Assembly: GCA_023418915.1 (NCBI GenBank)
Contig: JAEZYU010000037.1
Location: forward strand, 14,349-78,348
DNA length: 64,000 nt
Reading direction: 5' to 3'
Origin: Bacillota bacterium
GTDB lineage: Bacteria; Bacillota; Clostridia; Acetivibrionales; DTU013
Shown in pieces: positions 37,513 to 64,000 of this stretch (its first letter is position 1; every line of letters starts with the position of its first letter). The notes under the pieces were generated by a model. The model was not told the origin of the DNA. It ran no database searches and was given only the letters and a program-made list of their open reading frames with translations. A program made the position numbers and the translations under genes.

Positions 37513-39402
37513 CTACTCCACCTCCCTGACTACATTGTAAATATATTGGGAGCTCATTGGACGCCCATCGAATTTGAGGATACTGCGATCGCAGAATATA
37601 CCTGTGGTTTCAGCAATGACAGCTCCAAGCTGCCCGGCAGCATTCTGCTCGACATTGATCACCTTTTTTGCCTTTCCTGCTTTTTCAGTAAGCAGTTTTA
37701 TAGGTAAAGGCCAGATATCACCAAAAACGAGTGCACCATATTTTTTGTCATTATCTTCATTCAGCAGGCTGATCGCCTCAGTTACCGGTCCCCATAGCGA
37801 TCCCCATGCGAGCAGCAAAACCTCGCATTCCTCTTCGCCTGTAGACAATGGCTCCTGCAGTTCTTCTTTCAGCAGCTCAAGCTTGCGCATTCTTTTTAAT
37901 ACCATTCGATTTCTGATATCTGCAGACTCTGTTATGTGACCAGCTTCATCATGTTCATCACTGTCTGCCAGAACAGTCGATCCGGCGTATTGTCCCGGAA
38001 TCAGTCTCGGCGAAATGCCTGACGGTGTGATTTCATAGCGCCTATATGGTTTATCCTTACTGTACTCATTACTTGCTATATATCTATCGTGTTTAATTAC
38101 GCCAAAATCGAACGGCTCCCATGTTGATGACGAGTCTGCAAGGAACTGATCGCTCAAAAGAATAACCGGGATCTGATATTTATCTGCAATATTGAATGCC
38201 CTTATAGTCTGATAAAAAGCGTCCTGTGCATTTCTCAGCGCAATGACCATCCGAGGGAATTCACCGTGTGAAGCGGAAATAACAAACCTGAGATCACTCT
38301 GCTCAGTCCTTGTCGGAAATCCCGTAACAGGACCGGGACGCTGCACCTCCGCAACAACCAGCGGCACTTCCAGCATCGCCGAAAGACCCAGCCCTTCAAC
38401 CATCAGACAAAAGCCGCCTCCGGAGGTTCCTGTCATCGCTCTGGCTCCTGCATAGGATGCTCCGACAGCCATATTGATAGCTGCTATCTCATCCTCTGCC
38501 TGCTCAACAACGATCTGTGCATCATTCATTTTTTTCGCAAGATAATCCATTATGCTGGTCGATGGTGTCATCGGATAAGCCGAATAAAACTTGCAGCCTG
38601 CTGCCAGTGCACCAAGCGCCACGGCCTCATTTCCATTGATCAGTATACCGCTGTCTCTTTTACCGGCTGCCGCCTCAAACCTCTTTGCAACAAGCTTGCT
38701 TCCGGCATGAACCGCATCACAATTTTGACGGGCAATCTTCTCATTAAAAAAATCACTAAAGACCTTTTTGATCCCCATCCGGCCAATCCCATACAGTTCC
38801 AGAACAGCGCCTATCGCAACGCTGCCGAACGCTCTTACATTGCCGGCATCCTTCGCTGTCTGCTTCAAAGGAAGCCTCAATATTCTGTCATCCTTCGAAC
38901 TGATTACTCCATTATCTTTATTTCTGGTTCCGCCATCTTTCCAGGCGCTCTTTTCCTTGTCCTTCAGGCCGGCTATTTCGTTATCATCTGATCCGGTTGC
39001 TTCGTTTTCCTTCAGACCGGTTACTTTGTTATCATCTGAGTCGGTTGCTTCCTTGTCCTTCAGACCGGTTACTTCGTTATCATCTGAGTCGGTTGCTTCG
39101 TTTTCATCAAATACGATTTCTTCATCACATATAATGAAACCATCGGAACGGAGCCTCACTATATGATTCTCTATAGTCTCCTTATTCAGTGCAATAATAC
39201 CGTCTATTTCATCCCGGTGAGAGAGGATCTTCTCATTTCCGAAGCGCACCTGCACAAAATTGTGACCGCCCCTGACCCTCGACATGTAATCCTTTATCGA
39301 GAAAACCTCAAAGCCCTGCCTTTTAATAATCCTCTCAAAAACTGCAGAGACTGTTTCAACGCCCTGCCCTGCTGCTCCGCCAATCAAAATATTATAGTTC
39401 AA
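37513..39402 (-). CDS. 2-oxoacid:ferredoxin oxidoreductase alpha subunit with fused N-terminal gamma-like domain
   Basis: The N-terminal NILIGGAAGQGVETVS...RGGHNF is the gamma-type domain. The later GNEAVALGALAAGCKFYSAYPMTPSTSI and GASYAGARAMTGTSGGGF belong to the alpha domain. The two domains are joined by an unusual acidic repeat insert. Confidence 0.9.
   Translation of the reverse strand: MNYNILIGGAAGQGVETVSAVFERIIKRQGFEVFSIKDYMSRVRGGHNFVQVRFGNEKILSHRDEIDGIIALNKETIENHIVRLRSDGFIICDEEIVFDENEATDSDDNEVTGLKDKEATDSDDNKVTGLKENEATGSDDNEIAGLKDKEKSAWKDGGTRNKDNGVISSKDDRILRLPLKQTAKDAGNVRAFGSVAIGAVLELYGIGRMGIKKVFSDFFNEKIARQNCDAVHAGSKLVAKRFEAAAGKRDSGILINGNEAVALGALAAGCKFYSAYPMTPSTSIMDYLAKKMNDAQIVVEQAEDEIAAINMAVGASYAGARAMTGTSGGGFCLMVEGLGLSAMLEVPLVVAEVQRPGPVTGFPTRTEQSDLRFVISASHGEFPRMVIALRNAQDAFYQTIRAFNIADKYQIPVILLSDQFLADSSSTWEPFDFGVIKHDRYIASNEYSKDKPYRRYEITPSGISPRLIPGQYAGSTVLADSDEHDEAGHITESADIRNRMVLKRMRKLELLKEELQEPLSTGEEECEVLLLAWGSLWGPVTEAISLLNEDNDKKYGALVFGDIWPLPIKLLTEKAGKAKKVINVEQNAAGQLGAVIAETTGIFCDRSILKFDGRPMSSQYIYNVVREVE
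38962..39105. repeat. In-frame 48 bp x 3 tandem repeat inside the oxidoreductase alpha gene
   Basis: Three near-identical units occupy 38962-39009, 39010-39057 and 39058-39105. They encode NEATDSDDNEVTGLKD-like 16 aa units in the inter-domain linker. Confidence 0.9.
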
Positions 39403-39470
39403 ATGCCCAACTCCTTATCTAACACATTCTACAGGAAGCAGCCGCCTCTAAAGGCGGCATATTTAATAAT

Positions 39471-39647
39471 CTAGTCGACCAGGTCGTCCATAATGATGCA
39501 GCCTTGCGAAAACTCGGCAGAACAGGCCTCCTCATTTGGAATCGTATACACTTCGTCGTTATTCTTCACGTTGTTATTCTTCGCATCATTTCCTTTAGTC
39601 AGATCAACGCCATTTGGGCTCAAATTATGCATTTCCTTCTTATTCAT
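39471..39647 (-). CDS. Small hypothetical protein (58 aa), below the ORF-track cutoff
   Basis: Manual translation gives MNKKEMHNLSPNGVDLTKGNDAKNNNVKNNDEVYTIPNEEACSAEFSQGCIIMDDLVD. The RBS GAAGGGGTG lies 5 nt upstream. The GCCGCC-tttaga-GGCGGC hairpin (39441-39458) follows the stop. Confidence 0.35.
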   Translation of the reverse strand: MNKKEMHNLSPNGVDLTKGNDAKNNNVKNNDEVYTIPNEEACSAEFSQGCIIMDDLVD

Positions 39648-39765
39648 AGCTACACCCCTTCATACTGGATTCTTTCTGATAATGGTAAGCAGCGATTCTT
39701 TAGCCGCTTTACACTATTTTCTGATTTAGTATATAGTTACCCTCACTGTGCCTCACTAAACATCT

Positions 39766-40002
39766 GATTCGCTGGCACACAGGGGTCAGGCTTGAAAAAT
39801 GTTATAATTTTCAATTAATGGGGTACTTTTTAGGCAATAACCTCGATTTTTTCAATGAATTGTATACATAATTCATTGTTTTGCTGTATTATAGCGGTTA
39901 TTAAGCATAAAAGCTATCCCATTACTTGCATTTTTAAACATAAATAGAGTGAAACATATTATGTTTACCATCCTATACTTAATTACGATTTACATAGGAA
40001 TC
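39766..40002. repeat. Direct repeat copy A (about 236 bp), paired with 49041-49275
   Basis: Manual alignment shows roughly 85-90% identity across the full length in the same orientation, for example CCCATTACTTGCATTTTTA.ACATAAATAGAGTGAAACATATTATGTTTAC. Confidence 0.9.
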
Positions 40003-40125
40003 AGAAACAGTTTGTAAGACGTACACGACACCACTCCCAGTTTTAACAATGTATAACAAAAGGAGCTTTATAAAAGCTCCCTGATGCTTGCTGCAGTGTA
40101 ATATCTACATTATTTTACTTTACAT

Positions 40126-40425
40126 TTATGATTTGCCGCCTTTAATGACTCTAATCTCAACTTCCTGTTTATCAACCTTTGTAGAAATATCATTCACAAT
40201 TTTCTTAACAGCCGCTAACTCTTCATAAGTCTGATTATAACCATCATACAATGCGCGTATGTCTCTTTTTATATCGTTTTCTATCAGCAATTCAACTTTA
40301 TCAAGTCTGTTCTCTACACCGCCAAGTCTGTTCTCTACACTGCCAAGTCTGTTCTCTACACCGTCGAACCGGCCTGAAAACTCACTGTACATTTTGGTCA
40401 ACAGTTCAAATGTTTTATCTTCCAT
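40126..40425 (-). CDS. Small coiled-coil protein with heptad VENRLG[SG] repeats, function unknown
   Basis: The start is taken at M15 (MEDKTFELLTKMYSEF), behind AAGGGTG. There is no TM segment. It contains three tandem 7 aa repeats. Confidence 0.6.
   Translation of the reverse strand: MEDKTFELLTKMYSEFSGRFDGVENRLGSVENRLGGVENRLDKVELLIENDIKRDIRALYDGYNQTYEELAAVKKIVNDISTKVDKQEVEIRVIKGGKS
40302..40364. repeat. In-frame 21 bp x 3 tandem repeat (CAAGTCTGTTCTCTACACCGC)
   Basis: The copies lie at 40302-40322, 40323-40343 and 40344-40364, with one substitution each. Confidence 0.9.
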
Positions 40426-40600
40426 ATCAACACACCCTTTGCTCTGCTCGTCCTGCCCTATAATCATATCAAAACAGTGTTCATATTTCTATAGGTAAGA
40501 AGTATTATTATAACGCATCGTTCAAAGAAAGATTTTCGATTGTAGAAAATTTTTCTTACCTCTGTGCGTTTCAACGAGGCGAGAAATATGCTCGCATAGC

Positions 40601-40624
40601 TATCTTTCGATTAATCGAAAGATA
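40601..40624. promoter_or_regulatory. Perfect 24 bp palindrome TATCTTTCGATT|AATCGAAAGATA (candidate operator)
   Basis: It is exactly self-complementary. It lies in the 430 bp gap between the SMC-like gene stop and the 99 aa gene start. A related half-site, GATTTTCGATTG, lies at about 40530-40541. Confidence 0.4.
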
Positions 40625-40897
40625 ATATCTTAAAGGCAATCGGTACCCTCCACCAAGCGTTTTTCAGCCTGAAGGCTGAAAAGACATAAAGAGGTAGGGG
40701 ACATCATTCCTCGTTATATATACATTTTGATTATATATTATTTCCCGGACACGAACAATCGTTCTGTTACGGACAGAATAATGGTGGTTTGGTATCCACT
40801 GTCGCACTAGTTAATATATGAAAGAGATGTACCTTACCAAATAGCTGTCCATTAGTATGTCTTGATGTTATCAAAGTATGCCCAGACAGCCATTTTC

Positions 40898-43800
40898 TCA
40901 CATCTCAAAAAGACTAACCTGCTCAACCTTGCCGTACAGGCTGGCGGTTTCCAGCTTTTCATCCTGCTTCATTTCTCTTTGCATGATAGGTTCGAGCTCA
41001 ATGAAGTCCTCCTGCATCATACTCTGCCGGATCTTGATCATGTATATCAGGTCAAAGCTGTTTAAAACAGTGCCCTGCTTGATATCGGACAGGCATATCA
41101 GCTGCGTATTGTATTTTTGAGCAATATCGAACATAGGCTTGAGCAGGTGGCCGGAGGTAATAGGGCCAAAGGGGTTATCCATTATGAGCACCTTGCTCTC
41201 TTCCCGTCTTTTAAACTCATCATAACCCTTTATCTGTTTTCTGCTGTATGAAATCAATGCAACCAGCAAAGAGAAATACGCAATAAATTTCTCTCCTCCC
41301 GAGTTCTTTACTATAATATCCTCCCAAACCATCATGCCCCTGTTCTTCTCATTCAGGTCCACCTTATACGCCTTGATCCTGCAGTTTTCAAGGCTGCTTA
41401 CAATGTTCAGCAGCTCTTTTGTTGCCATATATTTCTCTATTTCACGCCTTAGCTTGTTGTCATCCTCGTTAACTTTGATCAGCCTTGTAATGCTTTCCAG
41501 GCTGTCGTCAATATAAAAATCCATCCTTTTGCGTGCTTCGGCCTCATCGGTCATTTTATCATATTCGATCTCAAGCACCTTTCTTCTTACGCCATCGATT
41601 TCAACGGCAGAATTCTCAGATATCTTCGGTATCTCGTGATATATCCTGCACGCCTCCACAAAAGCATGCTCCGTCAGGTCTCTGCGGCTGTTCTCGAGCT
41701 GCTGTATCTTGCTTTCCATTATTTTAAGAATGTTTGAAAGCTGCTCAAAGTAATAATCCATCCGCTCGGTCAAATAGTAATACTTGTCGTAAGTACGGTC
41801 AAGCAGATCAAGCTGGCTCTTAAGACCCTTGACAGCATCGGTGACTGTCCCCTCTTCGCTTCTGGAATAATTCATTATATACTGTGAACTGGCTATTTTA
41901 AATGTACTTATTGATTCATTCACTATCACTCTGCACCTAATAAACTCACTAAGCATTGACTCTATGGAGTCCTTAACATCGGCAAATTCCTTAATCTCAG
42001 CATCTACAATATACTGCTCTATATCTTTAATTTGATTCTCGATTGTGGTTTTCAGTCTCAGAAGCCCCATTTGCTCATTATGAAATCTATTTTTGTTCTC
42101 GTTCAATCTCTTTCTTTCGCTCAGGACATCTTCACTTCTTCTGGAAAAGTCCCCTCTGATTTCTTCCTTGGGTACTGCCGGTCTGCCTTTTAAAGCCGCT
42201 GTGGCATTTTTTAGAGTCCCATTTAGTGTGCCTTGTTCTATCCGGATATTGTTCTTCTTATTCTCCAGCCCTTTTAGATCCTTTTCAAGCTGACTTCTCC
42301 AAGACTCCAGTTCTGCTTCCAGACTTTCAGAATATACAATATTTTTATACTCTTCAGTTTCCAGCTTGAACATGCGTATATCCTTTTCATCATCCTTGAT
42401 GCCTCTCTGGAGCTCATTGATCCGCTCTTCGAGTTCGGCTGCCTCATTGTTCTGCTCTCTTCGGCAGGCATTAAGCCGGCCCTCAAGTTCAAGTATATCG
42501 GTGGCAGCTATCGGTTTGCACGAAGCGGCAGCTAAAGCCCTATCACTCTCATCGCCCATAGATGCATCCTCCACCACAGCATCTGCCACCTCAATGAGCT
42601 TATCCTTCATTTTCGCCAGCCTTCTCGTAATTTCATCCTTCCTGCTCAGCAGTTCCTTCTCACTATCTCTGTACCTTGCAATATCGTTATTAAGCTTCTT
42701 CAGGGATGTCTCCACGTCATTTATTCGTAGTCTGATATTGCTGCGTTTTTGGATGTTCTCCATATATATCAAATCGTCTGCAAGGTACTCTTTGAATCTG
42801 CCTATTCTTTTTTCAGCAGCCCCGACAGCATCCTTGGCTTCCTCTATCTTATCTATATTCGTCCGCAGCTTTTCCTCAGCCTCACTCAAATGGGCCTGAT
42901 TTGCCTGAATATCTCCGTTGTTAGCTTCTATCCGGGCTTTGACACCATTCTTTTCCTGTTGAAGCTCCAGTACTTCCTCCTCACTCCAGCCAAAATCCAG
43001 TATTATCTGATAGTCATGATTAAGTCTTTCTACAACCTCGTTGGCTGCTTCAAGCTCAAGTATCCGTTTGCTTTTTTCATTAATGATTGTATCAATAAAG
43101 CTCGACAGATCCCCGTTATCCAGAGCGATGTTCTTCGATGAAGTAATAAATTGAACACTGTCAAATTCAGTCTCCATCATATTGTCTCTTTGATTGTGCC
43201 TGATAACAGGTACTACCTGGCTCAGCTCAATTCCTTCAATAAGTCCTTCAATAATTTCCGCTTCCTTATCAGTGACCAACAACGCATAAGGCAGCATTGG
43301 ATTGCTCTCAAGCATTCTTTTCCTGGCCTGGTCATCTATTTCTCTTAAATACTTTTCACCGGTATAGCAGGGAAGGTTATGCTTTTCCAAAAGCGTTACA
43401 AAAGCAGCGGGAAGATAGCTGACCCCGTTTTCTATACCATGGATTTGCTTCTCCAACTCGCTTATCTCCATTTTCAATGCGTACACCTTATTTTCCCAAT
43501 CACTCAGGTATAACCTGGCTTCTTTTGCTATGAAGGGCTTGTCATAAAGGAATTCTTCCTTTATATCGATCCTCCTGAGTGCTTCTTGCACCTTCTCCCT
43601 TTCACGCTCAAAGCTCTCTATCCTGTTGTCAATGCTCGTCTCTTCTACCCTCAGTTCGGTGTTTTTTTGATTTAATTCGGCATCAGAGCATTTCAATTCA
43701 TCGATAATCAGCTTAAGTTTTTCAGCAAATTCGACTCTTTCAGCCAACATCTGCTTGCCTTGTATGAGTACGTCAGACAGCATTTTTTCGGTGTTTGACA

Positions 43801-45355
43801 CTTCCTGTCTGTCAAGCTCACAAAGCAACGGATTTCTGACCAGCTTCAGCTTCAGCTCTTGAAGAACCGCTTTCTCCCTGGCCTCGAAGCTTATGATATC
43901 CCGTTCCGCACCGCCAAGTTCAATGTTGAGCTCGTTGATTCGCCTATTTCCTGCCTTCATTTCAGATTCATTGCTCTGAATTCCTTCACGTACAGCTTTT
44001 AGCTCGGATTCCATCTCGCCGTTTTCCTTGCATAAGCTCTGGATCCGGTCCTCGTACGCAAGCTTCAGAGAAAACTTGATGCTGTTCAGTTTTTTTAGAA
44101 GCTCCTCCTGGTCCTTGGTCGCATTGTCAAGACGCTGCTGCATTTCGGCAATGGACTTCTTCTTTTCCAGTATCCTGCCATACTTTTCAGCCGCCCTTTG
44201 CAGATCCCTTCTAAATACCACCTCTGCAAGCCGCTCGTTTTGTTTATCTATCTCAGCCGCCGCTTCAGCGAGCCTTACTTCGATTTCGCCTAGCTCCTGA
44301 GTATATTTGTATACTTCATAAGACCTTTCCTCATGAGCAATATCCTCCAGCTCGACATCCAACTGCTGTAACCGTTTTTCGGTATTTCCAAGCTCTGCAG
44401 AAAGCTTGTCCTCCTCTATCTTCAGTGCCCTATATCCGCCGAGTATCTCTTTTTTCAGCTGCTCTTCTTCGTCTAGTCTGGTCAAAACTATTTTCGCTGA
44501 CTCATACAAAGCGCCAAGCTCATTCTTGAACTCACCTATGGCTCTGTGCTCCCTGATATATTTCTCATTGTCAACTAGGGACTGCGCCACCTGTCCCATC
44601 ATTATCTCCAGCTTTTTGTGATCTGTCGTGCCCGAATCAGACGATTTATTCAAAACCTTTTCAATATATTTGATGATCCATTGCTCCATCACCCGTCTGG
44701 AGGTCTTGCACTCTGAAAACACTTCGGAAACACCGTGCTCGGCTTCATTTATGCTGACGATCAATTCCTTCCATTCATCCTTTGAAATGTTATAGCTGCC
44801 AAGCTTGCTTTCATAACGGCTCTGATCCTCCCTTGCCGAATCGAACACAGCCAGCCCCGAGCCGTTTCTGCCGGTTTCCTTTTGCAGAAGCTTCCTGAAC
44901 TCGTGGTATTTTGCTATGCTGACACTATTTCCAGAACGATCGGAAACCGGGATGTTTTTTATATCATAAGCATTTCCTTCGCTGTATGCATTAACAAAGG
45001 TGAAATACCTTATATCAAAGCTTTCATCCTCCTCTCCCGGAGAATGGCTTGTCCTGTTGGAAACCGCAATGCCTGTAAGAAGATACCCTGCCTCATCATC
45101 GAGCTTCCACTCGAGCATTATATATGAAGGAGTTGCTTTAGATGCAAAAAAGTCTCTGAACTTTCTGTTGAACAATGTCAGTTTAGGCAGCACAGGCTGC
45201 AGCATAGCCTGTACAATAACGGACTTGCCTCCTCCGTTAGCCAGACTGAGCAGGGCATTTTCACCGCCATAGAAATCAAAAAGCTCATCAATAATGTGTC
45301 GTCTATTGTTGTTATATGAAAAATTGACAATCCTGACTCTGTTGATCTTAGGCAT
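40898..45355 (-). CDS. SMC/Rad50-type ABC ATPase with very long coiled coil (JetC/MksB-like)
   Basis: The start is taken at M11 (MPKINRVRIVNFSY), 1 nt after the upstream stop. Walker A is LANGGGKSVIVQAML. A coiled coil rich in E/K/L/R spans roughly 1000 aa. The ABC signature is NSGGEKFIAYF and Walker B is VLIMDNPFGPITS. Confidence 0.8.
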   Translation of the reverse strand: MPKINRVRIVNFSYNNNRRHIIDELFDFYGGENALLSLANGGGKSVIVQAMLQPVLPKLTLFNRKFRDFFASKATPSYIMLEWKLDDEAGYLLTGIAVSNRTSHSPGEEDESFDIRYFTFVNAYSEGNAYDIKNIPVSDRSGNSVSIAKYHEFRKLLQKETGRNGSGLAVFDSAREDQSRYESKLGSYNISKDEWKELIVSINEAEHGVSEVFSECKTSRRVMEQWIIKYIEKVLNKSSDSGTTDHKKLEIMMGQVAQSLVDNEKYIREHRAIGEFKNELGALYESAKIVLTRLDEEEQLKKEILGGYRALKIEEDKLSAELGNTEKRLQQLDVELEDIAHEERSYEVYKYTQELGEIEVRLAEAAAEIDKQNERLAEVVFRRDLQRAAEKYGRILEKKKSIAEMQQRLDNATKDQEELLKKLNSIKFSLKLAYEDRIQSLCKENGEMESELKAVREGIQSNESEMKAGNRRINELNIELGGAERDIISFEAREKAVLQELKLKLVRNPLLCELDRQEVSNTEKMLSDVLIQGKQMLAERVEFAEKLKLIIDELKCSDAELNQKNTELRVEETSIDNRIESFEREREKVQEALRRIDIKEEFLYDKPFIAKEARLYLSDWENKVYALKMEISELEKQIHGIENGVSYLPAAFVTLLEKHNLPCYTGEKYLREIDDQARKRMLESNPMLPYALLVTDKEAEIIEGLIEGIELSQVVPVIRHNQRDNMMETEFDSVQFITSSKNIALDNGDLSSFIDTIINEKSKRILELEAANEVVERLNHDYQIILDFGWSEEEVLELQQEKNGVKARIEANNGDIQANQAHLSEAEEKLRTNIDKIEEAKDAVGAAEKRIGRFKEYLADDLIYMENIQKRSNIRLRINDVETSLKKLNNDIARYRDSEKELLSRKDEITRRLAKMKDKLIEVADAVVEDASMGDESDRALAAASCKPIAATDILELEGRLNACRREQNNEAAELEERINELQRGIKDDEKDIRMFKLETEEYKNIVYSESLEAELESWRSQLEKDLKGLENKKNNIRIEQGTLNGTLKNATAALKGRPAVPKEEIRGDFSRRSEDVLSERKRLNENKNRFHNEQMGLLRLKTTIENQIKDIEQYIVDAEIKEFADVKDSIESMLSEFIRCRVIVNESISTFKIASSQYIMNYSRSEEGTVTDAVKGLKSQLDLLDRTYDKYYYLTERMDYYFEQLSNILKIMESKIQQLENSRRDLTEHAFVEACRIYHEIPKISENSAVEIDGVRRKVLEIEYDKMTDEAEARKRMDFYIDDSLESITRLIKVNEDDNKLRREIEKYMATKELLNIVSSLENCRIKAYKVDLNEKNRGMMVWEDIIVKNSGGEKFIAYFSLLVALISYSRKQIKGYDEFKRREESKVLIMDNPFGPITSGHLLKPMFDIAQKYNTQLICLSDIKQGTVLNSFDLIYMIKIRQSMMQEDFIELEPIMQREMKQDEKLETASLYGKVEQVSLFEM

Positions 45356-45356
45356 C

Positions 45357-46049
45357 CTACAGCTCACCTCTCTCAAAGGCTTCATTTATTTGCTTCACCC
45401 GGTCTGCGCTCAGGTAATACTGCCTCATGAGCACATCCAGCTTTCTCGTTGTCCTGATCTGATTCTCCACAATATATGCCAGCCTATGCTCCTCCAAAAT
45501 CTTCACGACATTCTCAATCACCCTGAGCTTCGTCCTTCTTTTCGATTCGTGATCCACCAGCATATTGAGCCATATTTCCACACAAGATGCAAGGTTGATG
45601 CCGTACTCTGCCTCGAGACGGTCCACCTCTTCTTTCTCCATGCTGCTGATCCTCTCAAGCCTCTCATCAAGGTCGTTTACAAGGTGCCCAAGCTGGATAA
45701 AATCAGTCCTTTTGGGGTCCTTGTTCTTACCATTATAAAACTCATACAGAATAAACATCATAATATAGTATGACAGGTAAACATCCTTGTTTGTCGCACT
45801 GCTGCCGAAATAACGCCTGATCTCGCCGGGCTGCACGCCAATGATCTGGCTGTTGATATTGGGCACAAGATAAACGGTTTCATCGAAATTCAGGAATCTG
45901 CATTCAAACTCCTCTTCAAAATGGGACAGCACCTCTTGAACCTCCGTCTCAAGATATTCGCTGTACAAAAAGGTCTGCTCCCTTCTGTTGAATTCGCCCT
46001 GCGATAAAAGCAGCTTGAATATTTTGATCGCCGAAATAACATGCTCCAT
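45357..46049 (-). CDS. 230 aa protein in the position and size of a KITE subunit (JetB/MksE-like candidate)
   Basis: Its ATG overlaps the upstream TAA (TAATG at 46047-46051). The N-terminal LLLSQGEFNRREQTFLYSEYLETEVQEVLSHFEEEFECRFLNFDETVYLVP resembles my recollection of the DUF4194 pattern. This is unverified. Confidence 0.5.
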   Translation of the reverse strand: MEHVISAIKIFKLLLSQGEFNRREQTFLYSEYLETEVQEVLSHFEEEFECRFLNFDETVYLVPNINSQIIGVQPGEIRRYFGSSATNKDVYLSYYIMMFILYEFYNGKNKDPKRTDFIQLGHLVNDLDERLERISSMEKEEVDRLEAEYGINLASCVEIWLNMLVDHESKRRTKLRVIENVVKILEEHRLAYIVENQIRTTRKLDVLMRQYYLSADRVKQINEAFERGEL

Positions 46050-47806
46050 TACATCACCGCCTTAAAAACCAGGTTTGACATTTTGACAGTCTCGATGCTT
46101 TTTGCTTTAACTTCTGTCTCTGTGAAGCCCGCTCCCGTACCTGTGAAGCCCGCTCCGGTCTGTGCAAAATCCTCTTCCGTTCCCGTTCCTGCGGGCTGAT
46201 CAACCGTTCTTTCTATCGTCACTTCGATCTCTTCCCCCGTCTTCTCCACGCGCAGCTCTCTGAGCCTCTCTATGTCATCAATCATATTCTTTACTTTAAC
46301 AAGACAATACTCTATGTTGAATTCCTCAGACGGCTGCATGATTACACGGCCTGAACCTCTATAAAAACTCGAAACATTTACTGTGCCAATATCATAAAGC
46401 TTCAATGCTACGAGGAATATACACCTGTCTCTGACAATTTCATCATATAGCGACGGGTTGCCTTCTCTGGTTTTGTTTATAATTTCGCTCAAGCTGACCT
46501 CGCCTGTCTGCATCACGCCGGTCTGCTTCTCCTCAGTGGTCTGCTTCTCCTCACCGGTTTCCACACCCTCTGCAGCTTTCATTGCCTCTGAGATTATCAG
46601 CGCCACCGAAACATCATAGCGCTCTCCTACCCTTTTGATCCTTGCTCTTTCAGCTGAATCATCAAACTCATCGACGCTCACTGTATGAGGGTTCTGTTCC
46701 GAACTATCCTTGATTATTGCCTGTGAGGCATATACGTCGCCTATTCCCAGCACACTCTTCCTGGCAGGCAGAAACAGCGGCTTTAACAGGTCCAGGCAAT
46801 TGTCCAGAACTTGTGTGCACCCTTCAAGATTGCTCAGGATGACCTCCTCGAAATCATAACGTTTTTCAAAGCTGAATTCAAAAGACCTTTTGATGGTATC
46901 CATATAAAGATCGGACAAGCTTGTCCTGTTTATGATGAGATCCCTTTGCTCAGATATCACTAGTCCTATATTGTGATGTATCTCCATGATCTCTGCACGG
47001 GCTTTCGACAGCTTCTGGTCAAAATCCCTGCCGGATGCGGTCTCTTCCTTTATTCTCTCCTGTGCCATATGGATCATTTTCTGGATTTCATCCATTGTGT
47101 CATACTCTTCGGTCAGCATCGAATATGTGCTTTTCATCAACGTCTCGTACTGCTCTATATCAACGCTGTGAATATTTTGTCTGATAGAAAGGATAAAACT
47201 CTCAAGATCCTTCTTTTTCTGACGCACCATCTTAATCAGTTCATAACTCTGCCTGACTGCGCTGGAGAACTTCTTTCGTTTAATGTATTCCTTAAGCTTG
47301 AGCTGCTCAATGGTCAACTGTATCTCCTCGTCGACCTCTTTCATTCGAAACAGGAATTCATACCCCTGGTTGGTTAACATATACACGATTCTGCGATCAT
47401 TATTTTCATCAATTATTTTATCATTGACAAGCCTGATGGTTATCTCTTCAACCGCTCTCTTTGTATAATTCACAAGGGGGTAAGCACATCTGGATCCGTT
47501 ATTTTGCAGTATGTCTTTAATGATGTAGCCCGCAATATCCCTGACTTGGCTCTGGTTAAAGGCTTTTGAATAGTATTCCCTTGTCAGCTGATCAAGAAAG
47601 TCTTCAATATGGTGCATTTCGCACTCGTTATTCTCCTCAAGGGTCTTCTCCATAATGAAAAGCAGCACTGAAATGATGATGTTTGTCATCTCATTTTCTT
47701 CGAAAAGGTTCTCCAGCTCTGTGTTTTTTCCCTTTCTGTTTATAATGGAATTAGCGATGCCTATCCATTCCATTCTTTTTTCGAAATTCTCCAAAAAATC
47801 AAACAT
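46049..47806 (-). CDS. 585 aa protein in the position of a kleisin-like subunit (JetA/MksF-like candidate)
   Basis: It has a helical N-terminal domain, a central coiled segment, and a C-terminal region with short in-frame repeats (GEEKQT/TEEKQT and TGAGFTG/TGAGFTE). I recognise no enzymatic motif. The assignment rests on operon context only. Confidence 0.4.
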   Translation of the reverse strand: MFDFLENFEKRMEWIGIANSIINRKGKNTELENLFEENEMTNIIISVLLFIMEKTLEENNECEMHHIEDFLDQLTREYYSKAFNQSQVRDIAGYIIKDILQNNGSRCAYPLVNYTKRAVEEITIRLVNDKIIDENNDRRIVYMLTNQGYEFLFRMKEVDEEIQLTIEQLKLKEYIKRKKFSSAVRQSYELIKMVRQKKKDLESFILSIRQNIHSVDIEQYETLMKSTYSMLTEEYDTMDEIQKMIHMAQERIKEETASGRDFDQKLSKARAEIMEIHHNIGLVISEQRDLIINRTSLSDLYMDTIKRSFEFSFEKRYDFEEVILSNLEGCTQVLDNCLDLLKPLFLPARKSVLGIGDVYASQAIIKDSSEQNPHTVSVDEFDDSAERARIKRVGERYDVSVALIISEAMKAAEGVETGEEKQTTEEKQTGVMQTGEVSLSEIINKTREGNPSLYDEIVRDRCIFLVALKLYDIGTVNVSSFYRGSGRVIMQPSEEFNIEYCLVKVKNMIDDIERLRELRVEKTGEEIEVTIERTVDQPAGTGTEEDFAQTGAGFTGTGAGFTETEVKAKSIETVKMSNLVFKAVM

Positions 47807-47847
47807 ACTCTACCTCACTGTAATGGAGCATCTGCCGCTGGTGCTAA

Positions 47848-48957
47848 TCAACCGGCAGATATAATTTTAACCATATTTTGCCGGTTCAGTATTTCCTGTG
47901 GTATGTAGCTGCCGCTTTGCAGTATATCAAGCATTCTATCCTGATATACCTTCTCAAACAACGAAACAAACCAGTCCACTGGTCTTCTGACCTGATTTTC
48001 CTTGGTTTCGGGCAATCTGACGTTTTCAGCCGCCTTCAGCATGGCTGCATACAATGGCTTGAAAACCTCGATCCGCAGTGTCGGATTTATTTTCATCAGA
48101 TCCTGTATAATGAATATCCCTTCATAATCAAGGTCACCAAAATAATAATAACACGTTTGGACATCTCTATAAAAACTGCTGTTGAACTCCGTCAATGAAT
48201 CGTTCTTTCTAGCGATTTTTTTGCCCTCACCGTAGATCAGGCTGTCAAAGCATATTCCTGCAATATTGCAAATGCCTGATGACATAATGTTCCTCAATGT
48301 GTACCAGGTATCTTTGTTTTCTATAATAAGGATGTTGCGTGTACCTGATCCATTTTCCACTGTTTTTTTATCCAATACTTCAATATTTGCTGCTGTCTTC
48401 TCTGCCTTATGCGGTATATCATAGGTGAAAAAAGGCTCGGGAGTCTCATAAAAATTCAGTAATTCTCTGAGCCCGGGATTGAAACTAAAAACTCCGGCCA
48501 GTTCGCTATCCTCTTTTAAGGCCTTCTCCTTCCCGAATATCTGGAACGACCTTTCATTAATTGACAGAGGGACTTCAAGCATACATGCACACTTTTTTAA
48601 AAATGTATCTAGCAGCGAAAGCCAGTGCTTATGCTTCATATATTTATCGAGCTCGGAAAGATATCCCTCAATATTAAGCCTGCCATGCAACAGACGTATC
48701 TCGGGAATAAGCTCCCCATAATTGAGCTGTGGTTTACTTATGCTATACCTTTTATATAGCGGTGGATTCATGCCATTTGAACCGGAACTCTTTACAGGAG
48801 AAATAGCGCCATTTTTAACAAGGCTATAAATAGCTTCATAGTACTCGTTATAGCCTAAAGATGGAAGATAGTCTCGAAGCTCTGTTTCCGATATCCTTAC
48901 ACCCTTATATTCGATCAGCTTTTTTGAAACACCCGCCAGATCCACCAGAACCACCAC
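47848..48957 (-). CDS. JetD-like protein with C-terminal Toprim domain (DUF2220-like)
   Basis: The 369 aa ORF has the Toprim Glu in NILIIENKDTWYTL and the DxD in YYYFGDLDYEGIFI. The GTG start follows GGAAAAGGAAAG. It is the first gene of the operon. Confidence 0.7.
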   Translation of the reverse strand: MVVLVDLAGVSKKLIEYKGVRISETELRDYLPSLGYNEYYEAIYSLVKNGAISPVKSSGSNGMNPPLYKRYSISKPQLNYGELIPEIRLLHGRLNIEGYLSELDKYMKHKHWLSLLDTFLKKCACMLEVPLSINERSFQIFGKEKALKEDSELAGVFSFNPGLRELLNFYETPEPFFTYDIPHKAEKTAANIEVLDKKTVENGSGTRNILIIENKDTWYTLRNIMSSGICNIAGICFDSLIYGEGKKIARKNDSLTEFNSSFYRDVQTCYYYFGDLDYEGIFIIQDLMKINPTLRIEVFKPLYAAMLKAAENVRLPETKENQVRRPVDWFVSLFEKVYQDRMLDILQSGSYIPQEILNRQNMVKIISAG

Positions 48958-49040
48958 ACTTTCCTTTTCCCATTATAACACATCGGCTTACGCCTTGCGG
49001 GGTCATACCCCTTACGGGGTCCAGCTAAAAATATTCCCTT

Positions 49041-49275
49041 GATTCGCTGTCATGCGGGGTCAGGCTTAAAAATGTTATAATTTTCTATTAATGGGATACT
49101 TTATAGACGATAACCCCGATTTTTTCAGTGAATTGTATACATAATTCAGAGTTCTGCTGTATTATGGCAGTTATTAGGCATAATAGCTATCCCATTACTT
49201 GCATTTTTATACATAAATAGAGTGAAACATATTATGTTTACTACCCTATACTTAATTACGATTTACATAAGAATC
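49041..49275. repeat. Direct repeat copy B (about 235 bp), paired with 39766-40002
   Basis: See copy A. It lies immediately upstream, in the minus sense, of the JetD-like operon. Confidence 0.9.
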
Positions 49276-49640
49276 TCCCATATAACCTCATTTTTACTTC
49301 CTTATGGTGACATGAAAGTAACATACTCCCCTCCCCTATGCTAAATGCAGAAAACAGCTGTCTGCCCTTGTACCATCTCCTGTATAGCAACTATTTAGTC
49401 GATAATATTACATATTATAATTTAGTTCAATATTTTCGTGCTCATATTGACTTACGGTGTTGAAGACGCAGTCGGAGAAAAAACCGTCATGATGATGTTT
49501 GAGGATATAGCTCAATGGGCAGGCGTAAAGCTCCACGTTTTGCGCTACTGTTCGGCTGCCTCGCATGTATCGGCCTGCAGGGAAAAGCTTGAAGAGGCTC
49601 GCCTTCTGGGGGAAAAGCTGGGGTGAAACCCGGGGGTCAA

Positions 49641-49712
49641 TTAATACCGCTGATAATTGTAGCCAGATATTGCTGGTTCAGTATCTACTGCGGTATGCAG
49701 CTGCCCTCATAA
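49641..49712 (-). pseudogene. Remnant of the 3' end of a second JetD-like gene
   Basis: About 70 bp align at roughly 80% with 47848-47920. The minus strand reads EGSCIPQ*ILNQQYLATIISG, against SGSYIPQEILNRQNMVKIISAG in the intact gene. It has an in-frame TAG and no upstream body. Confidence 0.5.
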
Positions 49713-50155
49713 TGAAAAAGGCAGACCATGCCCTGGATAAATATGCTTGACACCTTTACCTTTTAATTTTTCGATGCTTTTATTGAGCAAAGCAAAATCT
49801 ACTGCGTTAGATGCTGGTTCAGGTTTCTTAACATTCGATAAAATATCCCCTGCTATCAGGCCGCAACCCTCTGCAAATACACCAATCGAACCATTCGTAT
49901 GCCCGGGAATATGCATGATTTTTGCGTCAAACCCGTATTCTGCAAGGTCATCACCCTCTTCGAGCAGCAAACACCAGAGAAACGTCACCGGCTCACAGCC
50001 CTCCTTCTTCAGTCTTTCGAGTAGTAACTTGCGCCGGTTTGTAAATTCCTTATCCGTAAGCATATGCCCCCCGGTGTCGGCAAGCAAGAAACTATATCAT
50101 TTTTTATCAAATAGCAATTAACCCCGCCCAGATCAAGTCTTATTATTTCCTGCAT
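49707..50155 (-). pseudogene. MBL-fold metallo-hydrolase, frameshifted and internally deleted
   Basis: The N-terminal MQEIIRLDLGGVNCYLIKNDIV (ATG 50155, RBS AAGGAGG) shifts frame near 50085-50095 into LLADTGG...MHIPGHTNGSIGVF...GDIL...IYPGHG. The expected HxHxDH block between them is missing. Confidence 0.6.
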
Positions 50156-50262
50156 TTTATTGACCTCCTTTGCTTTCCTCCCTCCAAGCCGGCTCAAGAG
50201 TCCTTCAGCGGGATGATGGACCATTACCAACTAGAATCAACCTACCATTCCTTTTCTTCGAT

Positions 50263-51486
50263 CTACAGCGCTGTTACAGGGATAGTTACATTTTTGTCAG
50301 TAATATGAACGGCCTTATCGTACATACAGACAACGCCGCCTGTGCCAACAGCTATACCTTTGATTTTATCAAGGACAAAAAAGTTCCCGATATGCTCCTT
50401 ACCCGGGTTGGAGGTCTTCTTGATTTCAATTGGATGCATTATGCCATTTTGTTCTATCAGCAAGTCTATCTCTTTTGCGTCCCTATCCCGGTAATAGTAC
50501 AGCGATGGCTCCAGAACGCCTGCATTGTAATAGCTTTTAAGGATTTCAGCTACTACAAAGGTCTCGAAAAAGGCTCCGGCCATGGCGCCTGCTTCAAGCA
50601 CCTCAGGTGTAGTCCACTTAGTGAGATATGCAGCAAGACCGGTATCAAGGAAATACAGCTTCGGTGTTTTCACAGCTCTTTTGGTAACATTGTTATGATA
50701 CGGCTGCAGCAAATAAACAATGTTTGACGTTAGTAGTATAGAGAGCCATCTGTCCGCTGTCGGAACACTTATTCCCACCTCGTTTGCAACAGCAGATAAA
50801 TTAAGCATCTGAGAAGTTCTGCCTGCAATGGCAGTCATAAATTTGATAAATCTCAGTTCATCGCCGACCTGTGCAAGCTCTCTTACATCACGCTCGATAT
50901 AGGTCTTGGTATATGAGGCATAAAACATCTGCCAATCAATATCCTCCGAATACATAGCGGGCATTGAACCCTTGTGTATTATCTTCCAGATTCCCATATA
51001 GTCGATTTGCTTACTTGACGATTTCCTCTTTGCCAGGTATTCTTCCGTTGGTACAAAAATCTCACTAAACGAGTCTTTCATGATTTCACGAAGAGACAGA
51101 CCCAACAGGTTTATTATACCAATTCTGCCGGCAAGGCTTTCACTGACATTCTTCATCATTTTGAACTGCTGTGAACCTGTAAGAAAAAATTGTCCCTTTT
51201 TCCCGCTCTCATCGGCAATCATTTTTATATACTTAAATAAGTTCGGCGCATACTGAATCTCATCAACGATTACAGGCGGCGGAGCTATTTTGAAAAAAGC
51301 GCTTGCTTCCTCAATGGCGCTTTGCAGCAGAATCGGATCATCAAGAGTCAAATACGGAATATTCCCGGTAATATGCTTTACCAATGTTGTTTTGCCGACC
51401 TGCCTTGCTCCTGTTACCAAAACAGCAGAAAATATTTTAGAGGCTTTATTGATGGTACTCTCAACATTTCTGTCAATGTAATCCAT
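50263..51486 (-). CDS. AAA-family ATPase (AAA_14 + DUF4143-like architecture)
   Basis: The 407 aa ORF has Walker A LVTGARQVGKTTLV and Walker B-like VIVDEIQY. Its C-terminal half resembles the DUF4143 type (YYYRDRDAKEIDLLIE). Confidence 0.75.
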   Translation of the reverse strand: MDYIDRNVESTINKASKIFSAVLVTGARQVGKTTLVKHITGNIPYLTLDDPILLQSAIEEASAFFKIAPPPVIVDEIQYAPNLFKYIKMIADESGKKGQFFLTGSQQFKMMKNVSESLAGRIGIINLLGLSLREIMKDSFSEIFVPTEEYLAKRKSSSKQIDYMGIWKIIHKGSMPAMYSEDIDWQMFYASYTKTYIERDVRELAQVGDELRFIKFMTAIAGRTSQMLNLSAVANEVGISVPTADRWLSILLTSNIVYLLQPYHNNVTKRAVKTPKLYFLDTGLAAYLTKWTTPEVLEAGAMAGAFFETFVVAEILKSYYNAGVLEPSLYYYRDRDAKEIDLLIEQNGIMHPIEIKKTSNPGKEHIGNFFVLDKIKGIAVGTGGVVCMYDKAVHITDKNVTIPVTAL

Positions 51487-51680: not shown

Positions 51681-52502
51681 TTAATCCATTTTATTGAGTC
51701 TATTGTTCAAAATATTTCGCCGTAGTTCATTTAATGCAGTATCACCGGTACTGTTTTCTCTTATTGCCTTTTCTCTTTCATTAAAATCATAAAGAATAGC
51801 CAAGGAATCAGCATCGAGAGAGTTTCCTTCCGCATATAAGATTTTTGTGTTACTTAGATCAAGCATCGTGATGTCACGTATATTATTGTCAGTAATATAC
51901 AATTCAGTTAATCTCAAATCCTTCAATTGCGATACATCCGATATTTTATTTCCGCCTAAGCCCAATGTTTCCAGACTTGTTAAAAATGCAACAGCACTTA
52001 CATCTTCGATATTATTGTCTTCTAATCCTAATATTCTGAGTTTTTTTAACATTTTCAATCCAGAAATATCAGAAATATTATTTTTATTTAGAATGAGCGT
52101 TGTCAAATTAATATGATTTCGTATATTACTAACATCTTCAATATCGTTGTTGGATAGATTTAAAAAAGTTACCGCTGTTAAGTTGGCGATTGGACTTAGA
52201 TCAAAAATTTTATTATTTTCCAGGCTGACCCTTTTCAATTTTGTTTTATTCGACAACATACTTATATCTATTATATTGTTATTACTTAAATCTAAGGATT
52301 CCAAATTATTAAGCTTACTTAAGAAATCTATATTATTAACATTGCTGCTTCTTACAGATAAATCTTGTATGTTGACTAATTCGCTCAAGTCTGCCAAATT
52401 GCCTTTTTCATAATGTGAAATCTTCAAAACTCTCAATTTGTTCAACTTACTTATAGCTGATATATCATCCAGGGGACAGTCAACAGCACCAGCATGCAGC
52501 AT
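51681..52502 (-). CDS. Leucine-rich-repeat protein (internalin-type 22 aa LRRs), no signal peptide, possibly 5'-truncated
   Basis: The 273 aa ORF has about nine repeats of the LxxLxLxxNxIxDISxL type (LESLDLSNNNIIDISML, LNLSNNDIEDVSNI, LILNKNNISDISGL, LGLEDNNIEDVSAV, LGLGGNKISDVSQL). The upstream sequence shows stop-interrupted coding remnants in another frame. Confidence 0.75.
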   Translation of the reverse strand: MLHAGAVDCPLDDISAISKLNKLRVLKISHYEKGNLADLSELVNIQDLSVRSSNVNNIDFLSKLNNLESLDLSNNNIIDISMLSNKTKLKRVSLENNKIFDLSPIANLTAVTFLNLSNNDIEDVSNIRNHINLTTLILNKNNISDISGLKMLKKLRILGLEDNNIEDVSAVAFLTSLETLGLGGNKISDVSQLKDLRLTELYITDNNIRDITMLDLSNTKILYAEGNSLDADSLAILYDFNEREKAIRENSTGDTALNELRRNILNNRLNKMD

Positions 52503-56031: not shown

Positions 56032-56032
56032 A

Positions 56033-57844: not shown

Positions 57845-57845
57845 T

Positions 57846-60795: not shown

Positions 60796-61404
60796 TCATT
60801 TAAATAGAAGTATAATCCAAGGTGAAATCGCTGCTATTATAGATACACCTAATAATATAAATGTCAACTTACTGTTTTTATCCAACTTCTTATCCTCCTC
60901 ATCAACTTTCTCACAAACCTTATCTATGAGCTTATTGCTTTCGCTTCGCAAATCATTGATTTCATTTGACAAGCCATTAACTTTTTCAGATATTCTGGAT
61001 GCATATTTATCGATCTCTTTTATCACCAGACCAGACTTGCTTTCTAACCCCTCTTTTACCTTCTGAATGTTGTCCAACAATGTCTGAAGCCCACCGGTTC
61101 TGTTTAGCTCTTCAATTACACTCTGCAGTTCGGTTTCTACTCCTTTGATCATATCATGCAGCGTTTGTATCCTGTCCAGTATTTGCGTGCCGCCAATATT
61201 ATTAAATTCCCCGATAATCTTATGGGATTCGGCTGTTAGTTCTTTTGTCCTGCCTACAAGTTCAGAAAGGCTGCTGACCAGACCTTCCATCTGCATATTA
61301 GCATTCTTATACAGAGTGATTTCACCAGCTAGCTGCTCAATATTATCTACCAGCTTTTCTGCATCTTCATGCAATTTGATAAGATTTTCCTGACGGCTAC
61401 TCAT
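60796..61404 (-). CDS. Tail-anchored coiled-coil protein, function unknown
   Basis: The 202 aa ORF is heptad-rich and helical throughout, with internal similarity (IGGTQILDRIQTLHDMIKGVE versus TGGLQTLLDNIQKVKEGLE). It has a single C-terminal TM segment, LTFILLGVSIIAAISPWIILLF. It starts 29 nt after the helicase stop. Confidence 0.6.
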   Translation of the reverse strand: MSSRQENLIKLHEDAEKLVDNIEQLAGEITLYKNANMQMEGLVSSLSELVGRTKELTAESHKIIGEFNNIGGTQILDRIQTLHDMIKGVETELQSVIEELNRTGGLQTLLDNIQKVKEGLESKSGLVIKEIDKYASRISEKVNGLSNEINDLRSESNKLIDKVCEKVDEEDKKLDKNSKLTFILLGVSIIAAISPWIILLFK

Positions 61405-63968: not shown

Positions 63969-64000
63969 AATCAAAAAATCGATATCATCGTCTGATAACA

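What the first reader, a model, noticed from the sequence alone, without database searches (positions are those of the whole stretch)
40898..48957. Four-gene SMC-ATPase operon that looks like Wadjet/MksBEFG but has non-canonical order and sizes
Seen in sequence:
- The 369 aa first gene has Toprim hallmarks (E in LIIENKDTW, DxD in FGDLDYEG), as in the JetD C-terminal domain.
- The last gene is a 1486 aa ABC/SMC ATPase with Walker A LANGGGKS, about 1000 aa of coiled coil, signature SGGEK and Walker B VLIMDNPFG.
- Between them lie a 585 aa helical protein and a 230 aa protein of the sizes expected for kleisin-like and KITE-like partners.
- The genes are translationally coupled, with a TAATG overlap at 46047-46051 and a 1 nt gap at 45356.

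Established knowledge: Wadjet (JetABCD) and MksBEFG are encoded in the order kleisin, KITE, SMC, Toprim. JetC proteins are usually much shorter.

Inference: here the Toprim gene comes first, the SMC is about a third longer, and I could place the two middle proteins only by context. This may therefore be a divergent or unclassified SMC-based anti-plasmid or anti-phage system rather than a textbook Wadjet.
Basis: partly seen in the sequence, partly recalled or inferred. Interest (0 to 1): 0.85.

Follow-up and report, generated by a model that had tools for sequence, protein, structure and literature searches.

The report
Ordinary type III Wadjet anti-plasmid operon

Summary
Four intact, tightly packed minus-strand genes lie at 40898-48957, with the Toprim and ABC/SMC motifs and the junctions as described.

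The interpretation ("non-canonical, perhaps unclassified") does not hold. All four proteins match the PADLOC Wadjet type III profiles end to end:
- JetD3, E 1.9e-89
- JetA3, E 2.8e-135
- JetB3, E 1.6e-52
- JetC3, E 3e-164

Those profiles are 346, 536, 237 and 1471 positions long, so the sizes are typical of type III.

In 80 related loci from Bacillota genomes, all 72 with enough sequence have the order D-A-B-C on one strand. The other 8 are cut by contig ends. None has A-B-C-D. Two RefSeq megaplasmids are annotated in the same order.

AlphaFold models support two assignments. JetD resembles MksG, JetD and topoisomerase VI-A. The 230-aa DUF6063 protein resembles the KITE subunits MukE and JetB. 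The kleisin fold of JetA was not tested.

Most likely function, inferred from type I and II Wadjet: the JetABC motor extrudes DNA loops to recognise small circular DNA, and JetD then cleaves it.

One unusual point applies to the whole subtype. The JetC3 Walker B reads D-N-P-F-G, with Asn where SMC ATPases have the catalytic Glu. Type III has not been characterised biochemically.

The operon sits in a defence island beside an Azaca system and a PDC-S01 gene.

The parts
47848..48957 (-). jetD (type III): Toprim nuclease effector with an N-terminal winged-helix/helical domain. 369 aa from the GTG at 48957; more likely 365 aa from the GTG at 48945.
   Evidence: PADLOC JetD3 PDLC00592, E 1.9e-89, profile 5-342 of 346. 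Pfam JetD_C, 27.2 bits against a cutoff of 22. E213, D275, D277 and E279 are invariant in the family. AlphaFold model pLDDT 85.6. Top Foldseek PDB hits are MksG 8b7f (E 2.2e-5), topoisomerase VI-A 9o7o and P. aeruginosa JetD 7til. Public gene call is 365 aa.
46049..47806 (-). jetA (type III): presumed kleisin subunit, 585 aa. Longer than the family median of 532 aa; the extra length appears to lie in low-complexity Gly/Thr/Glu-rich stretches in the C-terminal third (sequence inspection, not measured).
   Evidence: PADLOC JetA3 PDLC00562, E 2.8e-135, profile 5-515 of 536. Sits between jetD and jetB in 72 of 72 loci. No Pfam family and no PDB sequence relative. The kleisin fold was not tested here.
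45357..46049 (-). jetB (type III): KITE subunit with tandem winged-helix domains; Pfam DUF6063; 230 aa.
   Evidence: PADLOC JetB3 PDLC00576, E 1.6e-52, profile 1-230 of 237. Pfam DUF6063, 151 bits. AlphaFold model pLDDT 75.9. The 14 best Foldseek PDB hits are all MukE or JetB chains, followed by Nse1/Nse3 entries.
40898..45355 (-). jetC (type III): SMC-type ABC ATPase, 1485 aa. Walker A at aa 38-45, signature SGGEK at 1352-1356, Walker B VLIMD-N at 1389-1394, presumed hinge at about 640-760.
   Evidence: PADLOC JetC3 PDLC00583, E 3e-164, profile 1-1449 of 1471. Motifs are conserved in 58 homologues. The N-terminal head profile hits ABC-F (E 1e-4) and Rad50 (E 0.04) in the PDB around Walker A. 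hhalign matches the MukB Walker A region at E 2e-4. Composition profile. Public gene call is 1485 aa.
48972..48980 (-). Candidate extended -10 promoter element TGTTATAAT, just upstream of the jetD ribosome-binding site.
   Evidence: Read from the sequence. Not in the list returned by the consensus scan. Pattern match only; no evidence of function.

Best explanation
This is a complete, intact type III Wadjet operon (jetD-jetA-jetB-jetC) on a Bacillota chromosome, inside a defence island.

Shown here: membership of all four type III families, conserved gene order, intact catalytic motifs, a JetD/MksG/topoisomerase VI-A-like fold for JetD, and a KITE fold for JetB.

Inferred from biochemistry on type I and type II Wadjet: JetC dimers, bridged by the JetA kleisin and carrying JetB KITE dimers, form a dimer of SMC motor units. 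These load on DNA and extrude loops using ATP. On a small circular DNA, extrusion runs to completion and the motors stall against each other. That changes the conformation of the complex and recruits a JetD dimer. The JetD Toprim site (E213, D275, D277) then cuts the DNA, so plasmids are linearised and lost. Chromosomal and linear DNA escape.
For: - Full-length, strong matches of all four proteins to PADLOC type III profiles. There are only partial, weak hits to JetD1 (best E 1e-5) and none to type I or II JetA/B/C profiles.
- D-A-B-C order on one strand in 72 of 72 informative related loci. These come from Clostridia, Syntrophomonadaceae, Desulfosporosinus, Pelotomaculum and Bacillaceae, with JetD identity of 34-71%.
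- The same order in the RefSeq records C. perfringens pJFP838A and a B. cereus 590-kb plasmid. Both are annotated JetD-domain protein / hypothetical / DUF6063 / hypothetical.
- Invariant Toprim residues and the fold match of the JetD model to MksG, JetD and topoisomerase VI-A.
- Fold match of the JetB model to MukE and JetB.
- Conserved ABC/SMC motifs in JetC.
- Translational coupling at two of the three gene junctions; a 41-nt spacer with its own ribosome-binding site precedes jetA.
- Defence-island context: PDC-S01, Azaca ZacABC and a DpdF-like helicase.
- Literature. Three Wadjet types were defined by sequence similarity and operon organisation (PMC10586767). The extrusion-cleavage mechanism is shown for types I and II and expected for type III (bioRxiv 10.1101/2025.03.10.642339). 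ATP hydrolysis by JetC is required for cleavage in type I (bioRxiv 10.1101/2022.10.04.510915). Deleting a native clostridial Wadjet raised conjugative plasmid uptake by about 10^5 (PMC12287153).
Against: - No type III system has been reconstituted, so the mechanism is extrapolated.
- The JetC3 Walker B is D-N, not D-E, in every family member examined. In type I the E-to-Q change at that position abolishes hydrolysis and cleavage. The ATPase cycle may therefore differ.
- The JetA kleisin fold and the JetC structure were not tested.
- JetC and JetA have no significant Pfam or PDB sequence match.
- TM-scores of the fold matches are modest (0.24-0.47), probably because of domain orientation.
Confidence: 0.88

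Rival explanations
1. It is a type III Wadjet, but it works differently from type I. The natural Asn at the catalytic-Glu position of Walker B makes JetC3 a slow or differently catalysed ATPase. Plasmid sensing would then rely on long-lived ATP-engaged heads, or on a substitute catalytic residue, rather than on fast processive loop extrusion.
For: D-N-P-F-G is invariant in 58 of 58 aligned JetC3 proteins. It is also present in members at 25-33% JetD identity on C. perfringens and B. cereus plasmids. The expected D-loop Asp is also not evident. The hhalign register places the Asn on the MukB Walker B Glu, although the alignment is not significant. JetC(EQ) abolishes hydrolysis and cleavage in type I. 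Type III is uncharacterised.
Against: Nothing else in the operon differs from the Wadjet plan. Another residue, such as the invariant His 9 residues downstream, could supply the catalytic function. No structure or assay is available. Motif-based inference about catalysis is often wrong.
Confidence: 0.2
2. One reading: a divergent or unclassified SMC-based defence system distinct from Wadjet types I-III, marked by unusual gene order and sizes.
For: Pfam and NCBIfam barely recognise the proteins: only JetD_C at 27 bits and DUF6063. There are no sequence relatives among solved structures.
Against: All four proteins make full-length hits to the existing type III profiles. Order and sizes are identical to the rest of that family. 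NCBI already names the relatives 'Wadjet anti-phage system protein JetD domain-containing protein' and 'DUF6063 family protein'.
Confidence: 0.02
3. A housekeeping MukBEF/MksBEF-like condensin for chromosome organisation, not a defence system.
For: JetB has a MukE-like fold. The JetC Walker A region resembles MukB.
Against: A co-oriented Toprim nuclease gene with intact catalytic residues heads the operon in every relative, with no intervening gene detected. The locus lies among defence genes. The family also occurs on megaplasmids.
Confidence: 0.03

Closest known systems
Wadjet type III (JetD3-JetA3-JetB3-JetC3; Doron et al. 2018 classification, as encoded in PADLOC)
   Same: All four proteins match the type III profiles end to end. 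Gene order, spacing and protein lengths match the family. The Toprim, Walker A, signature and D-N-P-F-G motifs are family invariants.
   Different: Nothing of substance. JetA is about 50 aa longer than the median, apparently because of low-complexity stretches. The nearest genome-collection relative has 71% JetD identity, so this is a new sequence member from an uncultured Bacillota.
Wadjet type I (E. coli GF4-3 and P. aeruginosa PA14 JetABCD; C. glutamicum MksBEFG)
   Same: Same four roles: kleisin, KITE, SMC and Toprim nuclease. The JetD model matches MksG 8b7f and JetD 7til. The JetB model matches JetB in 8dk1 and 8as8. The extrusion-cleavage mechanism is presumed to be shared.
   Different: The nuclease gene is first rather than last. 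JetC is about 1485 aa against about 1150. Sequence similarity is almost nil: only partial JetD1 hits at E 1e-5 and no JetA/B/C type I hits. Walker B is D-N rather than D-E. The type III hinge is reported to lack a channel (PMC12647877).
Wadjet type II (Neobacillus vireti nvJET-II)
   Same: An SMC-based plasmid restriction system with a long JetC coiled coil and, as reported, a channel-less hinge.
   Different: Type II has a tandem (double-size) KITE and A-B-C-D order. Here the KITE is a single 230-aa unit and the order is D-A-B-C. No type II profile hit any of the four proteins.
MukBEF (E. coli chromosome condensin)
   Same: KITE fold of JetB (MukE is the top Foldseek hit). MukB-like Walker A neighbourhood. 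Long SMC of about 1480 aa.
   Different: MukBEF has no Toprim nuclease partner and acts in chromosome segregation. Profile comparisons with MukF and the MukB C-terminal head are not significant.

Membership tests
Wadjet type III | All four components (JetA3, JetB3, JetC3, JetD3) present and matching the type III profiles over their full length | tested here: met
   JetD3 E 1.9e-89 (5-342 of 346). JetA3 E 2.8e-135 (5-515 of 536). JetB3 E 1.6e-52 (1-230 of 237). JetC3 E 3e-164 (1-1449 of 1471).
Wadjet type III | Operon organisation typical of the type: jetD first, then jetA, jetB, jetC, co-oriented and tightly spaced | tested here: met
   The window has D-A-B-C with a 41-nt gap, a 1-nt overlap and a 1-nt gap. 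72 of 72 informative related loci and 2 RefSeq plasmids have the same order. I could not read an explicit published statement of the order because Doron 2018 is not held.
Wadjet type III | JetD is a Toprim nuclease with conserved E and DxD, related to MksG, JetD and topoisomerase VI-A | tested here: met
   Invariant E213, D275, D277 and E279. Model pLDDT 85.6. Foldseek hits: 8b7f E 2.2e-5, 9o7o E 4.6e-4, 7til E 6.5e-4; global TM only 0.24-0.31.
Wadjet type III | JetB is a KITE protein (tandem winged helix) | tested here: met
   Model pLDDT 75.9. The top 14 PDB matches are MukE or JetB chains (E 2e-5 to 6e-3), followed by Nse1/Nse3 entries.
Wadjet type III | JetA is a kleisin that bridges the SMC neck and cap | not tested
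The sequence has no Pfam or PDB relative. hhalign against MukF is not significant. The assignment rests on the JetA3 profile match and on gene position.
Wadjet type III | JetC has the SMC layout: split ABC head, long antiparallel coiled coil, central hinge | tested here: inconclusive
   Walker A, signature and Walker B Asp are present at the two ends of the protein and are conserved. About 990 aa of coiled-coil-like composition lie between them, with a break at about 640-760. No structural model was made (1485 aa exceeds the 1200-aa limit). PDB and Pfam hits are weak and limited to the motifs.
Wadjet type III | Reduces plasmid establishment; all four genes required | not testable with these tools
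   Needs transformation or conjugation assays.
Canonical SMC/ABC ATPase active site | Catalytic Glu immediately after the Walker B Asp (hhhhDE) | tested here: not met
   The sequence is VLIMD-N-PFG. Asn is found in 58 of 58 relatives and in distant type III members. This is a property of the whole type III clade, so it does not bear on type III membership. It does qualify the claim that the system works like type I.
Wadjet type I / type II | Proteins match the type I or type II profiles (DUF3375/DUF4194/DUF3584/DUF2220-DUF3322, or DUF2397/2398/2399) | tested here: not met
   Only partial JetD1 hits covering the Toprim core (best E 1e-5). No JetA, JetB or JetC type I or II hit. No such Pfam domains were found.
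Lamassu (LmuB SMC-like) | Match to LmuB, with LmuA/LmuC partners | tested here: not met
   LmuB hits at E 0.1-0.2 only, in the coiled-coil region.

The most novel reading that the evidence does not exclude
The invariant Asn at the catalytic-Glu position of Walker B (D-N-P-F-G), together with the apparent lack of a D-loop Asp, could mean that type III Wadjet SMC motors run a non-canonical ATPase cycle. In that case this still uncharacterised subtype would sense plasmids in a way that differs mechanistically from types I and II. This would be a property of the whole subtype, not of this locus.
Probability: 0.2. Interest if true: 0.55.

Novelty: new member of a known kind. Interest (0 to 1): 0.15.

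Why it matters
For this locus, little: it adds one more type III Wadjet from an uncultured Bacillota. It also shows that the gene order and SMC length which looked odd are subtype norms.

Practically, such an operon predicts that the host resists small plasmids. That matters if anyone tries to engineer the organism genetically.

The subtype-wide D-N Walker B is worth a note to people reconstituting Wadjet-III. The equivalent E-to-Q change inactivates type I.

Tried and rejected
- Pfam and NCBIfam on the four proteins gave almost nothing. Hits were JetD_C at 27 bits, DUF6063, and coiled-coil-biased SMC hits far below cutoff. Scanning the JetC head halves and presumed hinge separately gave only SbcC_Walker_B at E 0.029.
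- Sequence and profile searches of the PDB found no Wadjet, MukBEF or SMC structure at a significant level. This covered the JetD family, JetC, the JetC N- and C-terminal heads, and the JetA family.
- hhalign of the JetC3 C-terminal head against MukB, and of JetA3 against MukF, was not significant.
- I looked for an explicit published statement of type III gene order. Doron 2018 is not held. Other papers say only that the types differ in operon organisation. A search for DefenseFinder gene names found nothing useful.
- The GACCCCG-containing direct repeats upstream of jetD were checked as a possible conserved regulatory element. They are absent upstream of jetD in nine relatives, and the heptamer count in the window is within chance.
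- No tRNA gene marks an island boundary in the window.
- There was no Rfam match in 39300-50300.
- The protein-representative search and the viral fold library were not used, because the question was already settled.
Full report
**Observation**

The region 40898-48957 carries four intact ORFs on the minus strand.
- 47848-48957: 369 aa from GTG.
- 46049-47806: 585 aa.
- 45357-46049: 230 aa.
- 40898-45385: the maximal ORF, 1495 aa.

The last gene most likely starts at the ATG at 45355, giving 1485 aa. The PADLOC alignment begins at residue 11 of the long ORF. The gene call on an identical public metagenome contig is also 1485 aa. That contig calls the first gene at 365 aa, starting at the GTG at 48945, which fits the homologue alignment.

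I read the junctions directly from the sequence.
- TAATG at 46051-46047: a stop/start overlap of one base.
- TAG-G-ATG, with the lone spacer base at 45356.
- A 41-nt spacer with a GTGAGG ribosome-binding site before the 585-aa gene.

- E213 and D275/D277/E279 are invariant in 23 JetD homologues of 40-74% identity.
- NGGGKS, NSGGE and DNPFG are invariant or nearly so in 58 JetC homologues.

The only corrections are the strand, the JetC length (1485 aa, not 1486) and an uncertain jetD start.

**What it is**

A scan against PADLOC-DB gives end-to-end matches to the Wadjet type III profiles for all four proteins.
- JetD3 PDLC00592: E 1.9e-89, profile 5-342 of 346.
- JetA3 PDLC00562: E 2.8e-135, profile 5-515 of 536.
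- JetB3 PDLC00576: E 1.6e-52, profile 1-230 of 237.
- JetC3 PDLC00583: E 3e-164, profile 1-1449 of 1471.

The profile lengths show that the sizes are normal for this subtype. JetC3 profiles span 1457-1494 positions, apart from one outlier of 1068 that matched only weakly. JetC1 is 1146 and JetC2 is 1365.

Hits to type I are limited to the Toprim core of JetD (best E 1e-5). No type II profile hit any of the four proteins.

Pfam recognises only JetD_C (27.2 bits) and DUF6063 (151 bits). NCBIfam recognises nothing meaningful.

**Gene order**

I built an alignment of 23 JetD3 homologues and scanned one genome per species (GTDB). This gave 173 confirmed matches, of which 80 loci were kept.

tblastn with the four window proteins shows D-A-B-C on one strand in 72 loci. 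The other eight (DA, DAB or D alone) are cut by contig ends. No locus has A-B-C-D.

The loci span Clostridia, Syntrophomonadaceae, Desulfosporosinus, Pelotomaculum, Proteiniclasticum and Bacillaceae, at 34-71% JetD identity.

JetC occupies about 4.4 kb in the loci where it is complete. ORF lengths have medians of 353 (D), 532 (A), 235 (B) and 1469 (C) aa.

More distant members lie on RefSeq megaplasmids: C. perfringens pJFP838A (33% identity) and a B. cereus 590-kb plasmid (25%). Both are annotated 'Wadjet anti-phage system protein JetD domain-containing protein / hypothetical / DUF6063 family protein / hypothetical (about 1450-1520 aa)', which is the same order.

The literature agrees in general terms.
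- The three Wadjet types were defined by sequence similarity and operon organisation (PMC10586767; bioRxiv 10.1101/2025.03.10.642339).
- Wadjet-III SMCs lack a hinge channel and mostly have longer coiled coils (PMC12647877).

I could not read Doron et al. 2018. An explicit published statement that jetD comes first in type III therefore rests on my survey, not on a citation.

**Folds**

- **JetD.** The AlphaFold model, built with the 23-sequence alignment, has mean pLDDT 85.6.
  - Its four significant Foldseek PDB matches are the C. glutamicum MksG nuclease (8b7f, E 2.2e-5), M. mazei topoisomerase VI-A (9o7o), and two chains of P. aeruginosa JetD (7til).
  - Weaker hits follow to topoisomerase VI, winged-helix regulators and the T7 primase Toprim domain.
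  - Global TM-scores are low (0.24-0.31), which I attribute to domain orientation.
  - The ranking supports a winged-helix plus Toprim architecture.
- **JetB.** The model has pLDDT 75.9.
  - Its 14 best matches are all MukE or JetB chains, followed by entries of the Smc5/6 KITE subunits Nse1/Nse3.
  - The 230-aa DUF6063 protein is therefore a KITE.
- **JetA.** No Pfam family, no PDB sequence relative and no significant hhalign match to MukF.
- **JetC.** Too long to model.
  - The heads give only motif-level matches: ABC-F and Rad50 around Walker A, and the SMC signature at E 0.086.
  - The Walker A neighbourhood resembles MukB (hhalign E 2e-4).

**Mechanism**

Shown here:
- four type III Wadjet components with intact motifs;
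- translational coupling at two of the three junctions;
- conserved synteny;
- JetD and KITE folds;
- a defence-island setting.

Inferred from type I and II biochemistry:
- A JetABC dimer of motor units extrudes DNA using ATP.
- Extrusion runs to completion only on small circles.
- The stalled complex then recruits JetD, which cuts the DNA through its Toprim site.

Type III itself had not been reconstituted as of the 2025 preprint, which only extrapolates the mechanism to it. From memory, not checked here: Doron et al. 2018 reported that a type III operon reduced plasmid transformation in B. subtilis.

**One real oddity, belonging to the subtype and not the locus**

The JetC3 Walker B reads hhhhD-N-P-F-G.
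- The residue after the Asp is the catalytic Glu in SMC/ABC ATPases. Here it is Asn in 58 of 58 relatives.
- The distant C. perfringens and B. cereus members also have Asn.
- No D-loop Asp is evident.
- In type I, the E-to-Q change at this position abolishes ATP hydrolysis and DNA cleavage.
- An hhalign register against MukB puts the Asn on the MukB Walker B Glu, but that alignment is not statistically significant.
- I found no mention of this in the held literature.

It may mean a different ATPase cycle, or simply a substitute catalytic residue. Only a head structure or an assay can tell.

**Context**

Flanking the operon on the jetC (low-coordinate) side are a 2-oxoacid:ferredoxin oxidoreductase pair and MetRS. 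This indicates a chromosomal location.

On the jetD (high-coordinate) side lie:
- a metallo-beta-lactamase fragment;
- a PDC-S01 AAA_14/DUF4143 ATPase;
- an LRR protein;
- a complete Azaca system (ZacC, ZacB, ZacA);
- a DpdF/PsyrT-like helicase, in lower-GC DNA.

No tRNA gene and no Rfam element were found.

The window matches a metagenome assembly contig. The closest relatives in the genome collection are Bacillota MAGs.

**Verdict**

This is a textbook type III Wadjet: a new sequence member of a known, catalogued kind. Interest is low.

Noticed in passing
window 40898-45355 (JetC aa 1389-1397); also L081:12406-16758 and L082:12440-17002: The JetC3 Walker B is D-N-P-F-G, with Asn in place of the catalytic Glu. 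Asn is invariant in 58 of 58 relatives and in distant type III members on C. perfringens and B. cereus plasmids. The D-loop Asp is not evident. At the H-loop position the window has LICLSD while C. perfringens has ISYTH.
   Followed up: partly
window 52657-59051 (-): A complete Azaca defence system about 3.7 kb beyond jetD, on the same strand: ZacA at 57846-59051 (E 2.1e-91, Pfam DUF6361), ZacB at 56033-57844 (E 2.8e-150) and ZacC helicase at 52657-56079 (1040.8 bits).
   Followed up: partly
window 50263-51486 (-) and 51681-52502 (-): A PDC-S01 candidate defence ATPase (AAA_14 + DUF4143, E 1.7e-103) and a 273-aa leucine-rich-repeat protein lie between Wadjet and Azaca. LRR proteins also lie within about 8 kb of the type III Wadjet, on either side, on C. 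perfringens pJFP838A (L081).
   Followed up: no
window 61434-63974 (-) and 60796-61404 (-): An 846-aa DpdF/PsyrT-like helicase (E 5.8e-84) and a 202-aa coiled-coil protein lie in lower-GC DNA (0.36-0.39) at the window edge. The defence island probably continues past the window.
   Followed up: no
window 48989-49071 (-): Three copies of a GACCCCG-containing 16-17-nt element (GACCCCGYAAGGSGTA, partly palindromic) sit 35-115 nt upstream of jetD, next to a TGTTATAAT extended -10. The element is not conserved upstream of jetD in nine relatives, and the heptamer count in the window is within chance.
   Followed up: yes
window 49707-50087 (-): A 126-aa ORF matches only the C-terminal part of the metallo-beta-lactamase fold (profile positions 97-196 of 196). 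It is probably a gene remnant at the edge of an approximately 750-nt AT-rich non-coding stretch upstream of jetD.
   Followed up: no
window 40126-40467 (-): A small ORF lies about 430 nt downstream of jetC: 113 aa here, called as 127 aa on the public contig, with a faint DUF7310 hit and a weak PbeC hit (E 4e-4). A terminator-like hairpin follows at 40082-40060. I did not check whether it travels with type III Wadjet.
   Followed up: no
L002:11187-12787: In the second-closest relative (a MAG, 66% JetD identity), jetA is split by an apparent frameshift: a 339-aa ORF, with the rest in another frame. This is either a pseudogene or an assembly error.
   Followed up: no
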